This document shows positions 30,450-38,560 of a DNA stretch of 47,140 nucleotides, piece after piece. Made by a program: the position numbers and the translations under genes. The stretch's first letter is position 1, and every line of letters begins with the position of its first letter. Below the pieces are notes generated by a model. It saw only the letters and a program-made list of their open reading frames with translations. It did not search any database and had not been told where the DNA came from. Origin of the DNA: a virus (taxonomy: Duplodnaviria > Caudoviricetes); the IMG/VR virus record IMGVR_UViG_3300043036_000090, positions 1 to 47,140 of that record. One strand, written 5' to 3'.

Positions 30450-30551
30450 AGTGCCTTTATTATTTTACTTTCCTTTCCTTTCCTTTCCTTGCATTCTGAT
30501 TGGCATAGCAAATGCAATGCAAATGCATATGCAAATGCATACCAAAAGTGC
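30450..30551. repeat. Intergenic iteron array plus (TTTCC)n tract resembling the origin in the initiator gene
   Basis: GCAAATGC at 30508, 30519 and 30531. CTTTCCTTTCCTTGCAT (30478-30494) is the exact reverse complement of 38249-38265. Confidence 0.8.
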
Positions 30552-31221: not shown

Positions 31222-31253
31222 CAAAGGTAGTGATTAGTGTTGAATGTTGCAAT
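31222..31253 (-). promoter_or_regulatory. Leftward (late-arm) promoter
   Basis: ATTG (31253-31250), 20-bp spacer, TACCTTTG (31229-31222). Confidence 0.65.
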
Positions 31254-31969: not shown

Positions 31970-32000
31970 ATTGCACTCTAAAGAAATCCCATTACCTTTG
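31970..32000 (+). promoter_or_regulatory. Rightward early promoter
   Basis: ATTG (31970-31973), 19-bp spacer, TACCTTTG (31993-32000). Predicted transcription start near 32005. Confidence 0.7.
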
Positions 32001-32004
32001 TCTT

Positions 32005-32323
32005 GTTGTCAGGGAAAAATGAGATACTTGATGACTAGGGTTAAAGAATCCTACAATGTTAAGGTCTACCCGAAAGGGTCTTAGCGACAGGTCTAACCCA
32101 CCTTTGGAAACGACAAAAGACACCACGTTATTACGGAAGTAGGCGGTTGGCTCGATTGGGATAGTAATATCCAATGGCATTGGTTTGAAGTTCTAGAAGA
32201 AAGGGTTGCTAAATAAACCCATCGCTGAGTAAACGGCGTCACAAAATCCCCACCCGTGCAAGGGTTATGCACAAGCGTACGATTGGAAAGGTTAACGGCG
32301 GTTCGATTCCGCTACCAATCGCT
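32005..32323 (+). ncRNA. Highly structured leader/ncRNA ending in a tRNA-like T-arm/acceptor domain
   Basis: Back-to-back stems at 32005-32035, 32036-32053, 32057-32086 (GAAA loop), 32131-32142 (GGAA), 32155-32175 (GTAA), 32203-32220, 32223-32238 and 32252-32265. These are followed by CGATTGG..GGCGG-TTCGATT-CCGCT-A-CCAATCG. Confidence 0.65.
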
Positions 32324-32325
32324 AC

Positions 32326-32347
32326 CCTTTTGGTGTAGGTCAACCAA
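32326..32347 (+). promoter_or_regulatory. Early-gene leader hairpin/pseudoknot, copy 1
   Basis: CCT-T-TTGGT-GT-AGG-TCA-ACCAA, 12 nt before ATG 32360. Confidence 0.75.
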
Positions 32348-32359
32348 CTTGAAAAAATT

Positions 32360-32902
32360 ATGTTACAATCAGCAAAAAACCTAGTAAAATTTGTAGAAAA
32401 AGTAAAGCCAAACGAAGACGCAATCATCTCAATGGGCATCAGAAATGATGGCGAAATTGATGCATTCTTCTACCTTCACAAGGGTAATGGTCGTGAGATA
32501 TTTGCTAAGCTAATACATTGCGCAACATTGCAGTTAGTACAGCGCGACACCGACAAGTACATTGACCTAGAGGGTATGTATGAGGGGTATAAGCTACGGG
32601 TTACGTTCTTAAATGAGCGTGACCAAGTTTGGGTTGACCCGAAAGAGGGATATCCTGAGGCGGTAAAGAATTGCGAATATTGGAACTATTTAACTGCTGA
32701 AGAGTGGAAGTCGTTTATGAAGGAGTTCTACTCAATTAACAAGTACGTAGGTCAAGAGGGTACGGGGGCATTCCAAAAGTACCTAAAGGAAAAAGCAGAC
32801 AAAGGTTTCCGCTCAATAATTATGGGAGCATTTATATTTGCCAACACATCTGAAGAGAATGTGTGGTATGAAATATGTGACCGCACTCAACCAATCGTTT
32901 AA
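32360..32902 (+). CDS. Early hypothetical protein (180 aa)
   Basis: First ORF of the rightward arm. Confidence 0.7.
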   Translation: MLQSAKNLVKFVEKVKPNEDAIISMGIRNDGEIDAFFYLHKGNGREIFAKLIHCATLQLVQRDTDKYIDLEGMYEGYKLRVTFLNERDQVWVDPKEGYPEAVKNCEYWNYLTAEEWKSFMKEFYSINKYVGQEGTGAFQKYLKEKADKGFRSIIMGAFIFANTSEENVWYEICDRTQPIV

Positions 32903-32926
32903 CAATTTATCACTAACAACAATTAA

Positions 32927-32950
32927 CCTTGCGGTGTATAGGCAACCGCA
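32927..32950 (+). promoter_or_regulatory. Leader element, copy 2
   Basis: CCT-TGCGGT-GTAT-AGG-CA-ACCGCA, 8 nt before ATG 32959. Confidence 0.8.
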
Positions 32951-32958
32951 TAACTTTT

Positions 32959-33141
32959 ATGAAAACTTTTATCTATTCATTAATCATTTCATTTGTTGTA
33001 TTGTACGTAGGCATTGCATTCGTATCATTCGATATCAACTTCCTAGCAGTAGCGGGAACGGCGGGTCGTTTTGCATTGCTATTCTTCACGCTAATCTTTG
33101 CGGTGCTAGGCACAATATGCATCGAGGAGACTAGAGACTAG
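32959..33141 (+). CDS. Small two-TM membrane protein (60 aa)
   Basis: MKTFIYSLIISFVVLYVGIAF...FALLFFTLIFAVLGTICI. Start re-assigned to the ATG after the leader element. Confidence 0.7.
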   Translation: MKTFIYSLIISFVVLYVGIAFVSFDINFLAVAGTAGRFALLFFTLIFAVLGTICIEETRD

Positions 33142-33190
33142 TGTAACTGACGAGGCTTGATGAGCCGAAACGCCTACGGGCGTCTTACAC
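33141..33190 (+). ncRNA. Hammerhead ribozyme, type I
   Basis: Stem I GTGTAA/TTACAC, core CTGACGA, stem II GGCT/AGCC, GAAA, stem III CGCC-TACG-GGCG. Cleavage triplet GTC with the predicted cut after C33184. Confidence 0.93.
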
Positions 33191-33198
33191 AAACTTAT

Positions 33199-33220
33199 CC
33201 TTTCGGTGTAGGTAACCGAA
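33199..33220 (+). promoter_or_regulatory. Leader element, copy 3
   Basis: CCT-TTCGGT-GT-AGG-TA-ACCGAA, 10 nt before ATG 33231. Confidence 0.78.
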
Positions 33221-33230
33221 ACCAAACATT

Positions 33231-34163
33231 ATGTCAGTATCAAGAAATGCAACACGTCAAATCAATTCATTGTTGAACGCTCAAGGCAACGAGTCAATGT
33301 TCGCACAACGCACCAAGAGTGTAGATGACCTATTAGCTAAGTCATCCCAAGACAACGTATTCGTGACCAACGAAGTTATTCAAATGCAAGAGTTAGTCGG
33401 TATGCCGACACGCAAGGGACTAGAGCAGGGGATTGTATCCAACGGCAAGCTAGTTAATGTGGTATCCAAGTCATACGGACACCTGCCTAACGAGGTATTC
33501 TTTTTAGAGGCTGAGCGCAAGTTGATTGACGCGGACATCTATTACAAGTCACGCTCAATCAATCGTGATGACCGCTCCTTTGCAGTTGATTATGTGCTAG
33601 CAGATGACCGCTACAAAATTGAGGTTAAGGGAGACAAGGATATCCTATTCCCAATGCTACGCTTCACTAACTCGTACGACGGGTCAAACAAGACTAGCGG
33701 TTCATTTGGAATGTATCGCAAGGTATGTGACAATGGCTTATGCATTGCACAAACGCAGATTGGATTCAGCGTAAAACATACGGGTTCAATCGCTGAGATT
33801 GTCTTACCTAAGTTAGACGAATTGGTAGCCAACTTTATGGACAACGAGTTCTTTTCGCTCAAGAAGAAGTTTGACCTACTAGCTGAGGCGCGTGTGTTAA
33901 ATGTAGAGAAGTACGTGCAAGACATCAACAAGAAGTTGAGCCTAATCAAGTACGAGTCATCAGACAAGAATCCTGCACCTAGCTTGAACGCTCGCTTTAT
34001 CCTAGATGTAGTGAACCGCGAGACTAAGCAGTTGAACGTTCGCCCTAACAAGTGGATTGTGTACAACGCTTTCAACGAGTTACTGCACAACAAATTGCAG
34101 AAGACTTTTGACCAACAAAAGACTATCGATGAGCGTTTGTTTGACCTTATCCTTGCATCTTAA
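33231..34163 (+). CDS. DUF932/DUF945-like phage/plasmid protein
   Basis: VVSKSYGHLPN, LRFTNSYDGS, RKVCDNGL, KHTG and WIVYNAFNE motifs. Confidence 0.75.
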   Translation: MSVSRNATRQINSLLNAQGNESMFAQRTKSVDDLLAKSSQDNVFVTNEVIQMQELVGMPTRKGLEQGIVSNGKLVNVVSKSYGHLPNEVFFLEAERKLIDADIYYKSRSINRDDRSFAVDYVLADDRYKIEVKGDKDILFPMLRFTNSYDGSNKTSGSFGMYRKVCDNGLCIAQTQIGFSVKHTGSIAEIVLPKLDELVANFMDNEFFSLKKKFDLLAEARVLNVEKYVQDINKKLSLIKYESSDKNPAPSLNARFILDVVNRETKQLNVRPNKWIVYNAFNELLHNKLQKTFDQQKTIDERLFDLILAS

Positions 34164-34184
34164 TTTTCCACTAGCAACAATTAA

Positions 34185-34208
34185 CCTTGCGGTGTATAGG
34201 CAACCGCA
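34185..34208 (+). promoter_or_regulatory. Leader element, copy 4
   Basis: Identical to copy 2. 34169-34210 matches 32911-32952 at 41/42 nt. Lies 11 nt before ATG 34220. Confidence 0.8.
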
Positions 34209-34219
34209 TATTATCTAAT

Positions 34220-34495
34220 ATGAAAACACAATTCGAACAAGCGGTTGAGCAAGCTAGATTAGGTAATCTACGTACGCCAAAAGTTTTTGCGGGAAATGGT
34301 AACGTTGATTATTTCTCATATCAATTAGCGGTACACAAATTCAACCTAAGCATTATGGCTTCGGGTATGACTTGTAATGGAATCAAGTTTACGGATATCA
34401 AAAATTACTACGGACTCAAGGGTCGTTCGGCAAAGGCTTGCCTACCACAATTCCTAGAGGTATTTGAATCTTACAAGCAATCACTAAACAACTAA
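34220..34495 (+). CDS. Early hypothetical protein (91 aa)
   Basis: MKTQFEQAVEQARL..., start re-assigned to the ATG after the leader element. Confidence 0.7.
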   Translation: MKTQFEQAVEQARLGNLRTPKVFAGNGNVDYFSYQLAVHKFNLSIMASGMTCNGIKFTDIKNYYGLKGRSAKACLPQFLEVFESYKQSLNN

Positions 34496-34502
34496 AAATA
34501 AA

Positions 34503-34526
34503 CCTTGCGGTGCATAGGTCAACCGC
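34503..34526 (+). promoter_or_regulatory. Leader element, copy 5
   Basis: CCT-T-GCGGT-GCAT-AGG-TCA-ACCGC, 8 nt before ATG 34535. Confidence 0.8.
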
Positions 34527-34534
34527 TAACTATT

Positions 34535-34750
34535 ATGCAAAATAAAAAACCATTGACCGCAAAAAAGTTACTAGAATTTTTATTAGAAACTGAGAAGCAA
34601 TTTGATTTGAGCAATGTGCATATCTATTATAGATACGATAGGGATTCAGAAGAGGAGGTAGTTTATGAGGTAGAAGAAGACCTATACGATGAAGATGATA
34701 ACGCGACGCTCACATCTATTATGTTCTATACAAATAGCGAAGAGATTTAA
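34535..34750 (+). CDS. Small acidic early protein (71 aa)
   Basis: MQNKKPLTAKKLLEFL...DSEEEVVYEVEEDLYDEDD. Confidence 0.7.
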   Translation: MQNKKPLTAKKLLEFLLETEKQFDLSNVHIYYRYDRDSEEEVVYEVEEDLYDEDDNATLTSIMFYTNSEEI

Positions 34751-34758
34751 AACTAAAA

Positions 34759-34781
34759 CCTTGCGGTGGTGGTCAACCGCA
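34759..34781 (+). promoter_or_regulatory. Leader element, copy 6
   Basis: CCT-TGCGGT-GGT-GG-TCA-ACCGCA, 7 nt before ATG 34789. Confidence 0.78.
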
Positions 34782-34788
34782 TAAGAAA

Positions 34789-35067
34789 ATGCCTAGATGG
34801 AATGATGAATCCCTAAGAGTTTACAAGGAGAACTCGCAAATAGTTATCCTAGCAAGAAAGTATTCGGAAAAGCATTGGTATAAGTGCGATGCCAACGAAG
34901 AGCATACCAAGATATATAATCTATGCAAGTACGCCATATTCAACGACCAACTTACAATCAAGCAAGCGGGTTGGCTGAAGGCATACCTTCGCCGAAACAA
35001 CGTTGACGAATCTGAACTTTCGTCTACACAAATAGCACTTATGTCGACTAATTCGGCACAACAATAA
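34789..35067 (+). CDS. Early hypothetical protein (92 aa)
   Basis: ORF following a leader element. Confidence 0.65.
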   Translation: MPRWNDESLRVYKENSQIVILARKYSEKHWYKCDANEEHTKIYNLCKYAIFNDQLTIKQAGWLKAYLRRNNVDESELSSTQIALMSTNSAQQ

Positions 35068-35084
35068 TATCCGTCCTAAATTTG
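35018..35084 (+). promoter_or_regulatory. Operator-like repeat copy 2 plus -7 box TAAATTTG
   Basis: TTTCGTCTACACA-N9-TATGTCG (35018-35046) and TAAATTTG at 35077-35084. The -33 element is weak (TTCG). Confidence 0.5.
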
Positions 35085-35109
35085 GGCATCAACTAAAACA
35101 AACAACATT

Positions 35110-35307
35110 ATGGAATCTAAATATGATTACGACTTTTTTTTATTTAGTCAATTGGTTTACGCTCAAGGAGATAAGCTAAGTGAATTAGAGTACGACTATG
35201 CATTTGAAGAAATTGTCATTTTATACAAGGACTTTTTAGCATCAAAATTTAACGTATCAACCAAAGGGTTATACGAATGTATTGTCGACTATCTTAATCA
35301 AATGTAA
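35110..35307 (+). CDS. Small acidic hypothetical protein (65 aa)
   Basis: ORF with A/C-rich leader. Confidence 0.65.
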   Translation: MESKYDYDFFLFSQLVYAQGDKLSELEYDYAFEEIVILYKDFLASKFNVSTKGLYECIVDYLNQM

Positions 35308-35317
35308 TAATCTAAAA

Positions 35318-35341
35318 CCTCACGATGTATGGGACAATCGT
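35318..35341 (+). promoter_or_regulatory. Leader element, copy 7
   Basis: CCT-C-ACGAT-GTAT-GGG-ACA-ATCGT with compensatory stem changes, 12 nt before ATG 35354. Confidence 0.75.
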
Positions 35342-35353
35342 AGATTATCTAAT

Positions 35354-35590
35354 ATGATAAATGAATTATTAATTAACACTCACTACGCAAACTTGCAAGA
35401 CGAGTTAGATGTGTGGTATGGCAGTCAGCCATTTAGTAAATTAGAAAAGATACACGACCTAAACAAAAACGATTTGTTTGGTCGGACGGATTCTGAGTTA
35501 GAAGAGATTCTATCAGAACTAGAAGATGAGTGGGTTGAGTGGTCAACCGACACCAAGGTAATGTGGTACAATCAAATTATGGGATACTAA
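35354..35590 (+). CDS. Small acidic hypothetical protein (78 aa)
   Basis: MINELLINTHY..., start re-assigned. Confidence 0.65.
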   Translation: MINELLINTHYANLQDELDVWYGSQPFSKLEKIHDLNKNDLFGRTDSELEEILSELEDEWVEWSTDTKVMWYNQIMGY

Positions 35591-35603
35591 ACTAAATAAA
35601 CCG

Positions 35604-35756
35604 ATGCCAAAACAACAAGCAATCGTTGAAGCAATCAGCGAGAATCTAGAAGAGTTAAGAACTCATTTAGATTATAGAAAGTATACGGCGGAAGATTTTT
35701 CCGAAGAAGAAAACTTGATAAATAATATTGAAATCCTTTTAATGCAATTGCAATGA
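35604..35756 (+). CDS. Small acidic protein (50 aa, not in ORF track)
   Basis: MPKQQAIVEAISENLEELRTHLDYRKYTAEDFSEEENLINNIEILLMQLQ, with an A-rich leader. Confidence 0.55.
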   Translation: MPKQQAIVEAISENLEELRTHLDYRKYTAEDFSEEENLINNIEILLMQLQ

Positions 35757-35814
35757 GCGAAGAAGATATTGCGCACCTTATGTGGGTGCTGAACAACAAC
35801 CGATAATCTAAGAA

Positions 35815-35837
35815 CCTCACGATGTATAGGCAATCGT
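35815..35837 (+). promoter_or_regulatory. Leader element, copy 8
   Basis: CCT-C-ACGAT-GTAT-AGG-CA-ATCGT, 10 nt before ATG 35848. Confidence 0.78.
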
Positions 35838-35847
35838 TAACCAAGCA

Positions 35848-36048
35848 ATGAAACATTTTTTATCAGGCGAGCAATTCGCAACACTGAAAAACAATAATTG
35901 GGACGTCAAGCCCGATGGTATGTATGTTCATCTATACCGAGATGAATATAACGAAGACCTATGGGAGCTAATCTGCTACCAAGCAGAAGTAGATGCCGAC
36001 ATAGATAAGTTAACACTCCTTGTATTTGGAACAATGACAAACCTTTAA
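35848..36048 (+). CDS. Hypothetical protein (66 aa)
   Basis: ORF following a leader element. Confidence 0.65.
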   Translation: MKHFLSGEQFATLKNNNWDVKPDGMYVHLYRDEYNEDLWELICYQAEVDADIDKLTLLVFGTMTNL

Positions 36049-37850: not shown

Positions 37851-38560
37851 AGAAGGATGCATATTATTTCCCGCATTTTAGTAATGCGAGGCACGATAGA
37901 AAATTAAAGCGAGTAATTAAAGACTTAGGTATCGAAGGCTACGGCATCTACTTTATGGTGCTTGAGGTACTTAGAGACCAACAAGATTTTAAGTATCCTT
38001 TGGATGACTTGGACTTGCTTGCGGATGAGTTTGGTACGAGTGAATCCAAGCTAAAGGTTGTGGTAAGTAACTACGATTTGTTTCAGATAGACATAGACAA
38101 TAATTTCTTTTCTATGAGACAAAAGTTCTATATGCAACCCTACTTGGAGAAAACTCAGAGAGCAAAAGATGCCGCTCAATTACGTTGGAACAAGGTTAAG
38201 GATGCAAATGCATTACCAAATGCAGATGCAAATGCAGATGCAAATGCTATGCAAGGAAAGGAAAGTAAAGTAAAAGAAATTAAAGTAAAAGAGATTAAGG
38301 TGCTAAGCGCACGGGATTTGATATTTGAAAAATGGTTTAAGTATAAGCGAGAGAAGAAACAATCCTACACTACCACAGGTATTGAAACGCTGACTAAGAC
38401 TTGGGCTAGCTATTCAGACGAGCAACTTGAGCAGATTATTGATACATCGATATCTAATAACTATTCTGGATTGTTTGCACCTAGAGGACAAACTCCTGCT
38501 AAGACATCAAGTGAGCCGACTGCACCACGTACAACGATAACGATTCCCGACAATTACTAA
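37847..38560 (+). CDS. Replication initiator (DUF4373/Lin1244-like N-terminal domain)
   Basis: YYFPHFSNARHDRKL...EGYGIYFMVLEVL N-terminal domain, central repeat linker and SISNNYSGLF C-terminal domain. Directly upstream of dnaB. Confidence 0.75.
   Translation: MKKDAYYFPHFSNARHDRKLKRVIKDLGIEGYGIYFMVLEVLRDQQDFKYPLDDLDLLADEFGTSESKLKVVVSNYDLFQIDIDNNFFSMRQKFYMQPYLEKTQRAKDAAQLRWNKVKDANALPNADANADANAMQGKESKVKEIKVKEIKVLSARDLIFEKWFKYKREKKQSYTTTGIETLTKTWASYSDEQLEQIIDTSISNNYSGLFAPRGQTPAKTSSEPTAPRTTITIPDNY
38201..38300 (+). repeat. Putative replication origin (iterons plus purine/A-rich tract) inside the initiator gene
   Basis: (G/C)CAAATGC at 38204, 38216, 38228 and 38240 (12-bp period), followed by AAGGAAAGGAAAGTAAAGTAAAAGAAATTAAAG. 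Layout resembles lambda ori. Confidence 0.75.

What the first reader, a model, noticed from the sequence alone, without database searches (positions are those of the whole stretch)
32326..35837. Eight covarying ~23-nt hairpin/pseudoknot elements, each 7-12 nt upstream of an early-gene start codon
Seen: copies at 32326, 32927, 33199, 34185, 34503, 34759, 35318 and 35815, consensus CCT-Y-[stem]-G(1-3 nt)-AGG-(T)CA-[stem']. The stem changes compensatorily (TTGGT/ACCAA, TGCGGT/ACCGCA, TTCGGT/ACCGAA, ACGAT/ATCGT), so base pairing rather than sequence is conserved. The invariant upstream CC(T) can pair with the loop (A)GG (GGG with a U-G pair in copy 7, ACC/GGT in copy 6). This gives a compact H-type pseudoknot with 0-1, 2-4 and 2-3 nt loops. 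All copies have the same orientation and a narrow distance to the ATG, and I saw them only in the early cluster. Established: Bacteroidota mostly initiate translation without Shine-Dalgarno pairing. Inference: a phage-specific translational enhancer or operator (ribosome- or protein-binding), or a 5'-end protector, co-regulating early genes. Alternatives are ssDNA hairpin promoters (as for N4 vRNAP) or recombination sites for gene swapping. I do not recognise it as a named RNA family.
Basis: partly seen in the sequence, partly recalled or inferred. Interest (0 to 1): 0.92.

Follow-up and report, generated by a model that had tools for sequence, protein, structure and literature searches.

The report
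Tiny phage pseudoknot before start codons
Many unrelated bacterial viruses place the same 23-letter RNA motif, predicted to fold as a compact pseudoknot and absent from Rfam, just ahead of gene start codons, where it likely helps host ribosomes start translation in Bacteroidota, bacteria that ignore the usual Shine-Dalgarno signal.

Summary
All eight copies are real (8 against 0.06 in shuffles) and end 8-12 nt before an AUG. Hundreds more occur in unrelated phages, prophages, a crAss-like phage and microviruses, but hardly in host chromosomes. The 5-bp stem covaries on the sense strand. The 3-bp CCU/AGG stem never varies, but the single loop base covaries with one stem pair as a major-groove triple would, which supports the pseudoknot. 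Without a Shine-Dalgarno the element hugs the AUG (96 of 103 family contexts at 6-14 nt); with one it moves upstream of it. Hammerhead ribozymes and tRNA-like elements often sit just 5' of it. It is not early-gene-specific, and a phage-polymerase promoter is unlikely. Best reading: a host-read translation-initiation element (0.45). Main rival: a barrier to mRNA decay (0.25), since about a quarter of copies have no near AUG and some precede tRNAs. No Rfam family fits; COG2908 shares its 5' half only. The scan noted this kind of element before on other phage DNA. Function is untested.

The parts
31993..32000 (+). Bacteroidota-type -7 promoter box heading the small-gene cluster (consensus recalled; start site inferred)
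32252..32272 (+). Related pseudoknot-like motif inside the ~350-nt non-coding leader; its 5-bp stem differs but still pairs in relatives; not start-linked
32280..32322 (+). tRNA-like element (7-bp acceptor-like stem plus T-arm), covarying in relatives; predicted processing site 4 nt before copy 1
32326..32347 (+). Element copy 1, 12 nt before ORF 32360-32902 (180 aa)
32927..32949 (+). Element copy 2, 9 nt before ORF 32959-33141 (60 aa)
33141..33190 (+). Type I hammerhead ribozyme with an intact core; predicted cleavage after 33184, 14 nt before copy 3
33199..33219 (+). Element copy 3, 11 nt before the DUF932 gene 33231-34163
34185..34207 (+). Element copy 4, 12 nt before ORF 34220-34495
34503..34526 (+). 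Element copy 5, 8 nt before ORF 34535-34750
34759..34780 (+). Element copy 6, 8 nt before ORF 34789-35067
35318..35341 (+). Element copy 7 (C loop base with A-U stem pair; U-G wobble in S1), 12 nt before ORF 35354-35590
35815..35837 (+). Element copy 8, 10 nt before ORF 35848-36048

Best explanation
The repeat is a portable 21-25-nt mRNA element, predicted to fold as a compact H-type pseudoknot, that phages place just 5' of the ribosome-binding region, where it likely acts as a docking signal for the host 30S subunit (probably bS1 or the platform) and so would raise initiation on individually translated genes. Shown: copies, spread, stem covariation, sense-strand bias, loop-base/stem-pair covariation, spacing. 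Inferred: the fold (S1 CCU/AGG 3 bp, L1 1 nt, S2 5 bp, L2 2-4 nt, L3 2-3 nt ending in A), a host reader, and the direction of the effect. In Bacteroidota the stem ends 6-14 nt before the AUG, about where a Shine-Dalgarno duplex would lie; in SD-using phages it moves upstream of the SD. Upstream ribozymes and tRNA-like elements would cut the long transcript into units that begin with a short AU-rich tail, the pseudoknot and the gene. Short shared repeats also make the genes easy to swap, probably as a by-product.
For: Spacing: 96 of 103 family contexts have the ATG at 6-14 nt; among the 75 that follow an upstream gene the ATG distance has sd 1.7 nt against sd 12 nt to the stop; the spacing holds after hammerheads (7) and tRNA-like elements (8); the genes fall in 50 protein clusters. 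No SD-like triplet in 90 of 90 family spacers; A at -3 in 62 and at -6 in 61, the Bacteroidia determinants named in PMC13000457 (passages). Wider sample: 116 of 181 paired hits have an ATG at 5-15 nt against 10 of 79 unpaired hits; SD-like words in 0 of 113 near and 9 of 23 far spacers. All 8 distinct hammerheads found are followed by an element (7 at 10-16 nt, one variant at about 25 nt), so it can work with no upstream cistron. Microviruses carry it, which points to a host reader. Loop and S1 bases are invariant while S2 changes, as expected of a recognised shape. Pseudoknots are high-affinity bS1 targets (PMC10931766, passage).
Against: No expression or binding data. Of 239 elements, 36 have no start within 35 nt, 18 have a distant ATG without SD (two of these have a second ATG at 8 nt) and 4 precede tRNA genes; two Streptomyces loci also have it 3 nt before tRNA-Asp. 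42 of 75 copies lie 7-10 nt after the upstream stop, so it may simply fill the gap between two ribosome footprints. Reduced secondary structure is a determinant of initiation in F. johnsoniae (PMC13000457). Host chromosomes hardly use it (1 weak hit in 150 further Bacteroidota genomes). S1 shows no compensatory change.
Confidence: 0.45

Rival explanations
1. mRNA-decay barrier: the pseudoknot is a coaxial obstacle that slows RNase E/G scanning from upstream cuts (and 3' exonucleases from downstream cuts), insulating each cistron or tRNA; it is pushed as close to the start as ribosomes tolerate.
For: H-type pseudoknots impede RNase E scanning (PMC9943677, passages). RNase E/G is over cut-off in 40 of 41 Bacteroidota genomes. 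Explains copies before tRNAs, copies with no AUG and a copy between convergent genes (L037). AU-rich, G-poor 5' flank.
Against: In that paper protection grows with the number of coaxial pairs, the 8-bp pseudoknot was the shortest tested, and composition mattered little; this element stays at 8-9 bp with invariant bases. RNase J is over cut-off in 0 of 81 Bacteroidota genomes. A barrier 10-16 nt after a hammerhead cut (5'-OH, recalled as a poor RNase E activator) seems redundant.
Confidence: 0.25
2. Ribosome-traffic insulator or coupling device: the knot sits just beyond the terminating ribosome and stops run-on or sets re-initiation at the next gene.
For: 42 of 75 family copies lie 7-10 nt after a stop and only 5 closer; compact pseudoknots of this build resist ribosomes (PMC10321173, passages).
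Against: 21 of 96 family copies follow a hammerhead, a tRNA-like element or no gene within 150 nt; the cr50_1 copy heads a divergent unit. Stop and next ATG are in frame in 1 of 7 window cases, so not readthrough.
Confidence: 0.1
3. Translational operator bound by a phage or host RNA-binding protein that represses or times these genes.
For: Invariant loop bases and closeness to the AUG; pseudoknot operators are known (rpsO, alpha operon; PMC10931766, passages).
Against: Shared by phages as unlike as 6-kb microviruses, a crAss-like phage and this podovirus, and by genes of unrelated function. I did not search systematically for a shared protein.
Confidence: 0.08
4. DNA hairpin promoter for a virion RNA polymerase (N4-like).
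For: Repeats confined to a small-gene cluster; relatives encode 2,400-3,200-aa virion-type proteins.
Against: Wobbles favour the sense strand: G-U 19 against A-C 0 and 38 against 4, though many G-U cases are one stem family. Three giant proteins tested match polyvalent-protein domains or nothing, with no RNA-polymerase hit (PDB search on one only). Microviruses are too small to encode one. Ribozymes upstream imply transcription begins earlier.
Confidence: 0.04
5. Recombination sites only.
For: Element-led genes are patchy and reordered among relatives, while two neighbouring genes without the element occur in most of 27 stretches compared.
Against: Stem covariation erodes sequence identity; single copies occur; fixed spacing and triple-type covariation need an RNA function.
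Confidence: 0.03

Closest known systems
COG2908 RNA (Rfam RF02939)
   Same: Model positions 11-23 are identical to the 5' half of copy 3; the model's only three E<=10 hits in this genome are copies 1, 2 and 4.
   Different: 45-nt three-way junction with an outer stem and a second hairpin; its consensus has no 3' partner strand for S2. Best score 15 bits against a gathering score of 58.7 in 50 records. Possibly a relative or a rearranged form; not membership.
Small plant-virus H-type pseudoknots (tobamovirus UPD-PK2, RF01083; luteoviral frameshift pseudoknots; coremin)
   Same: Similar size. UPD-PK2 is a 21-position model (its 3-bp/5-bp layout is recalled) from a domain that stimulates translation (PMC5382211, passage). 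In luteoviral knots the L1 base enters the S2 major groove at a G-C pair (PMC10321173, passage).
   Different: Eukaryotic viruses, 3' UTR or coding positions; no sequence-level match (13 bits, misaligned); here L2 is 2-4 nt and the site is 5' of bacterial start codons.
bS1-binding and r-protein operator pseudoknots (SELEX ligands of Ringquist 1995; rpsO; alpha operon; T4 gene 32)
   Same: Pseudoknot in a 5' leader read by the ribosome or a ribosomal protein (PMC10931766, passages; T4 gene 32 recalled).
   Different: Those are single-locus regulators or artificial ligands; this one is portable, multi-copy and shared by unrelated phages. The SELEX consensus could not be read, so it was not compared.
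Phage start-associated repeats (mycobacteriophage SAS/ESAS; T4-type PeSL cassettes)
   Same: Repeats ahead of small, variable early genes and linked to gene shuffling (recalled, and named in earlier scan notes; papers not read).
   Different: As recalled, SAS is an extended SD-like sequence and PeSL contains a promoter; here spacers lack SD, stems covary, and no promoter box recurs before the copies.
DUF805 / DUF805b RNAs (RF03081, RF02914)
   Same: Short cis-regulatory candidate motifs; lead taken from an earlier scan note.
   Different: Neither model hits any copy at E<=10.

Membership tests
COG2908 RNA (RF02939) | Score at or above gathering threshold 58.7 bits | tested here: not met
   8-12 bits in the window; at most 15 bits in 50 records
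COG2908 RNA (RF02939) | Outer stem and second hairpin forming a three-way junction | tested here: not met
   Copies align only to model positions 6-25 or fewer; consensus seen
COG2908 RNA (RF02939) | Conserved inner sequence, positions 11-23 | tested here: met
   13 of 13 identical in copy 3
DUF805 / DUF805b | Covariance-model match | tested here: not met
   No hit on any copy
H-type pseudoknot | Stem S2 supported by compensatory change | tested here: met
   4 of 5 pairs change on both sides in 67 rows; 64 of 74 hits with free stem positions have at least 3 of 4 pairs
H-type pseudoknot | Stem S1 supported by compensatory change | tested here: inconclusive
   CC/GG invariant in 67 of 67 rows, selected for by the search; with S1 left free CCU accompanies AGG in 32 of 34 and other loops in 1 of 65, and no start-linked compensatory form appears
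H-type pseudoknot | L1 base interacts with the S2 major groove | tested here: met
   Covariation only: U or G with G-C 117, C with A-U 40, A or C with C-G 20, C with G-C 4, of 181; third-ranked column pair
H-type pseudoknot | Fold shown by probing or structure | not testable with these tools
   Needs DMS/SHAPE, NMR or crystallography
Type I hammerhead ribozyme (33141-33190) | Conserved core plus stems I-III | tested here: met
   Rfam scores below gathering (18-21 bits); cleavage not tested
N4-type virion-RNAP hairpin promoter | Phage-encoded RNA polymerase and template-strand hairpin | tested here: not met
   No polymerase match in three giant proteins; wobbles on the sense strand
bS1 SELEX pseudoknot | Consensus loop sequences and nanomolar bS1 binding | not testable with these tools
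   Original paper not read; two searches gave no consensus
RNase J roadblock (xrRNA-like) | Host encodes RNase J | tested here: not met
   0 of 81 Bacteroidota genomes over cut-off

The most novel reading that the evidence does not exclude
A natural, portable structured initiation signal for bacterial ribosomes: a 23-nt pseudoknot whose invariant CCU/AGG helix has the same letters as the anti-SD/SD core and which docks at the 30S platform or bS1 in place of the SD duplex, letting diverse phages out-translate host mRNAs on SD-blind Bacteroidota ribosomes.
Probability: 0.3. Interest if true: 0.9.

Novelty: new variant of a known kind. Interest (0 to 1): 0.72.

Why it matters
How Bacteroidota ribosomes choose start codons without Shine-Dalgarno pairing is an active question, and how their phages compete for those ribosomes is largely unknown. 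A 23-nt element shared by podoviruses, a crAss-like phage, microviruses and prophages, yet nearly absent from host genes, makes this directly testable with small reporter fusions. It comes with a built-in three-base rescue test. If it enhances initiation or stabilises mRNA it would also be a compact expression part for Bacteroides and Flavobacterium, and a marker for true start codons of small phage genes.

Tried and rejected
Rfam: whole window and sub-regions gave nothing at gathering level; GOLLD does not match the leader. Literature: searches found no description of this motif; exact-sequence words hit two unrelated papers. The supplement of PMC5737381 could not be read, and the largest supplementary files of PMC10690425 (3 files) and PMC8040213 (2 files) were not searched; an unnamed candidate there could remove novelty. 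Sequencing runs: no RNA holder was listed. Sigma-70 promoter and terminator scans were at background for promoters and listed no + strand terminator at any copy. Readthrough rejected. Elemovirus elemoE, a cultured phage with a 33% identical terminase, has no copy. Most of the 94 GTDB pattern hits lie inside ORFs of GC-rich genomes and were treated as chance. One search did not cover the longest loop class, so one search was added. A Fisher test restricted to newly seen stem types and to the C/U, A/G classes was not significant (p 0.18); the support comes from the full table. Hits are not phylogenetically independent and R-scape was not available. A recalled resemblance of the commonest stem to 16S helix 45 was not tested; stem covariation argues against pairing with rRNA. 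PMC7097825 was not held.
Full report
Context. The window is a 74%-complete virus record. Its terminase is about 32% identical to Elemovirus and 25-28% to Cellulophaga and Tenacibaculum phages, and complete relatives in IMG/VR are 62-66 kb. A Bacteroidota host is inferred from this. The elements lie in a cluster of small genes, mostly without family matches except DUF932, that follows a Bacteroidota-type -7 box at 31993 (consensus recalled) and leads into replication genes. 'Early' is an inference from this layout.

Observation. All eight copies are present, on one strand, 8-12 nt before an ATG, against a shuffle mean of 0.06. The layout is CCU, one loop base, a 5-bp stem strand, G plus 1-3 nt, AGG, 2-3 nt ending in A, and the stem partner. 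A type I hammerhead with an intact core ends 14 nt before copy 3. A tRNA-like element with covarying acceptor-like stem ends 4 nt before copy 1.

The 5-bp stem is real. With four stem positions left free in the search pattern, 64 of 74 distinct viral hits had at least three of four Watson-Crick pairs and 30 had all four, in nine stem sequences. On 67 aligned copies four of five pairs change on both sides. Single-mismatch stems are G-U rather than A-C on the sense strand, 19 to 0 and 38 to 4. Many G-U cases belong to one stem family (3 and 8 distinct types), so this is supportive, not decisive.

The pseudoknot. CCU and AGG never change together to another pair. With S1 free, CCU accompanied AGG in 32 of 34 hits and other loop triplets in 1 of 65; in the shorter-loop class 13 of 20 hits with CC were start-linked against 2 of 93 without. 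So S1 has no covariation support. Other evidence does point to the fold. The single L1 base covaries with the fourth S2 pair almost as strongly as the pair itself. In the later scans, where L1 was free, G-C went with U (108), G (9) or C (4), A-U with C (40 of 40), and C-G with A (15) or C (5). Keto bases go with G-C and amino bases with A-U or C-G, which is the donor/acceptor pattern of a base bridging the major groove (my inference). Small luteoviral pseudoknots insert L1 in just this way (PMC10321173, passage). Over all distinct stem types the C/U by A/G table gives p = 3e-4, but over new types alone p = 0.18, and lineages are not independent.

Spread. The element occurs in 4-13 copies in each of five relatives, always in one cluster, and in unrelated phages. 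Named cases are crAssphage cr50_1, ahead of gp040, and microvirus MK496766.1, between the capsid gene and the next ORF, with a similar microvirus prophage in a Bacteroidales genome. Of 94 GTDB hits to one exact variant, most lie inside ORFs of GC-rich genomes; the intergenic, start-linked ones are mostly in phage-like regions of Bacteroidales records. A covariance model found one weak hit in 150 further genomes of that phylum and none in 150 further genomes of the Streptomyces phylum, with only 48 candidates scored per genome. It is therefore a mobile-element device.

Position. In the family, 96 of 103 contexts have the ATG at 6-14 nt; of the other seven, one is a clear copy without a near start and six look like descriptor noise. 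The distance to the upstream stop is far more variable (sd 12 against 1.7 nt), although 42 of 75 fall at 7-10 nt. Spacers have no SD-like triplet (0 of 90) and carry A at -3 and -6 in about two thirds (this set was selected for a near ATG). All 8 distinct hammerheads found are followed by an element. In the wider set of 239, 156 have an ATG at 4-15 nt without SD, 17 have an SD-like word in the spacer (16 of them with the ATG at 14-32 nt), 8 have an alternative or short start, 18 a distant ATG, 4 a tRNA and 36 nothing within 35 nt. Two Streptomyces loci place it 3 nt before tRNA-Asp.

Mechanism. The tight upper limit on spacing, the shift upstream of an SD, the persistence after ribozymes and the invariant bases fit a shape read at initiation by the host 30S subunit or bS1. 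Bacteroidia ribosomes sequester the anti-SD and depend on bS1 and upstream adenines (PMC13000457, abstract and passages), and pseudoknots are known bS1 targets (PMC10931766, passages). I give this 0.45. The exceptions fit a decay barrier better: pseudoknots impede RNase E scanning, though in proportion to length (PMC9943677, passages), and RNase E/G is present in 40 of 41 Bacteroidota genomes while RNase J is in 0 of 81. I give that 0.25; both could hold. Readthrough, a phage-polymerase promoter and a pure recombination site are disfavoured. CCU is part of the anti-SD core CCUCC (PMC10783764, abstract in listing), which motivates the boldest reading, an SD-duplex mimic; nothing here tests it.

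Known families. No Rfam family reaches its threshold. COG2908 RNA shares 13 nt with copy 3 and its model prefers these copies, but it scores at most 15 of 58.7 bits and has a different structure. DUF805 and DUF805b do not match. Ten literature searches found no description. Large supplements of three motif-discovery papers were unreadable or only partly searched. Papers seen: passages of PMC10931766, PMC7038950, PMC5737381, PMC10085705, PMC13000457, PMC9943677, PMC10321173, PMC5009743, PMC5382211; partial supplements of PMC10690425 and PMC8040213; listings only for the rest. SAS/ESAS, PeSL, N4 promoters and T4 gene 32 are recalled. Earlier scan notes describe the same kind of element on other phage DNA; they are not evidence.

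Verdict. A real, widespread, uncatalogued phage RNA element, very probably a compact pseudoknot, most likely acting at translation initiation. Function untested. Interest 0.72.

Noticed in passing
window 33141-33190; L004, L005, L009, L018, L053, L061: Type I hammerhead ribozymes, below Rfam thresholds, recur in this phage family, each just 5' of an element.
   Followed up: yes
window 32280-32322; L001, L002, L003, L051, L054, L059, L066, L069, L071: A recurring tRNA-like mini element (acceptor-like stem, often a UUGG loop, T-arm) precedes elements or sits directly before AUGs; covarying, no Rfam match; possibly an RNase P/Z processing signal.
   Followed up: partly
window 32005-32325: About 320 nt of non-coding leader; its 3' 130-140 nt are 74-83% conserved in two relatives and include a second pseudoknot-like motif; not GOLLD.
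   Followed up: partly
L144:2490-2525: In a Tychonema genome the element lies in a region without ORFs between what look like CRISPR repeats, i.e. in a spacer, suggesting a cyanobacterial mobile element carries it.
   Followed up: no
L163:2501-2528; L212:301-328; L663, L690, L740, L784: Element 3-26 nt upstream of tRNA genes.
   Followed up: partly
L148:2501-2707; L191:2501-2627: Two or three tandem elements in one leader; only the last is next to an AUG.
   Followed up: no
L437:9655-19230 (-); L445:3766-12780 (-): Relatives encode 3,000-aa polyvalent proteins (ART-PolyVal, LPD38 domains) in the part of the genome missing from the window.
   Followed up: partly
L268:290-400 (cr50_1): A conserved, hairpin-rich non-coding stretch lies directly upstream of the cr50_1 element and recurs in L234; not identified.
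   Followed up: no
window 30455-30545 (-) and 38190-38295 (+): The replication-initiator gene and a small ORF at the head of the late cluster share similar repeat tracts in inverted orientation, possibly origin iterons.
   Followed up: no
window 31222-31229 (-) and 31993-32000 (+): The same -7 box octamer heads both divergent gene clusters.
   Followed up: no
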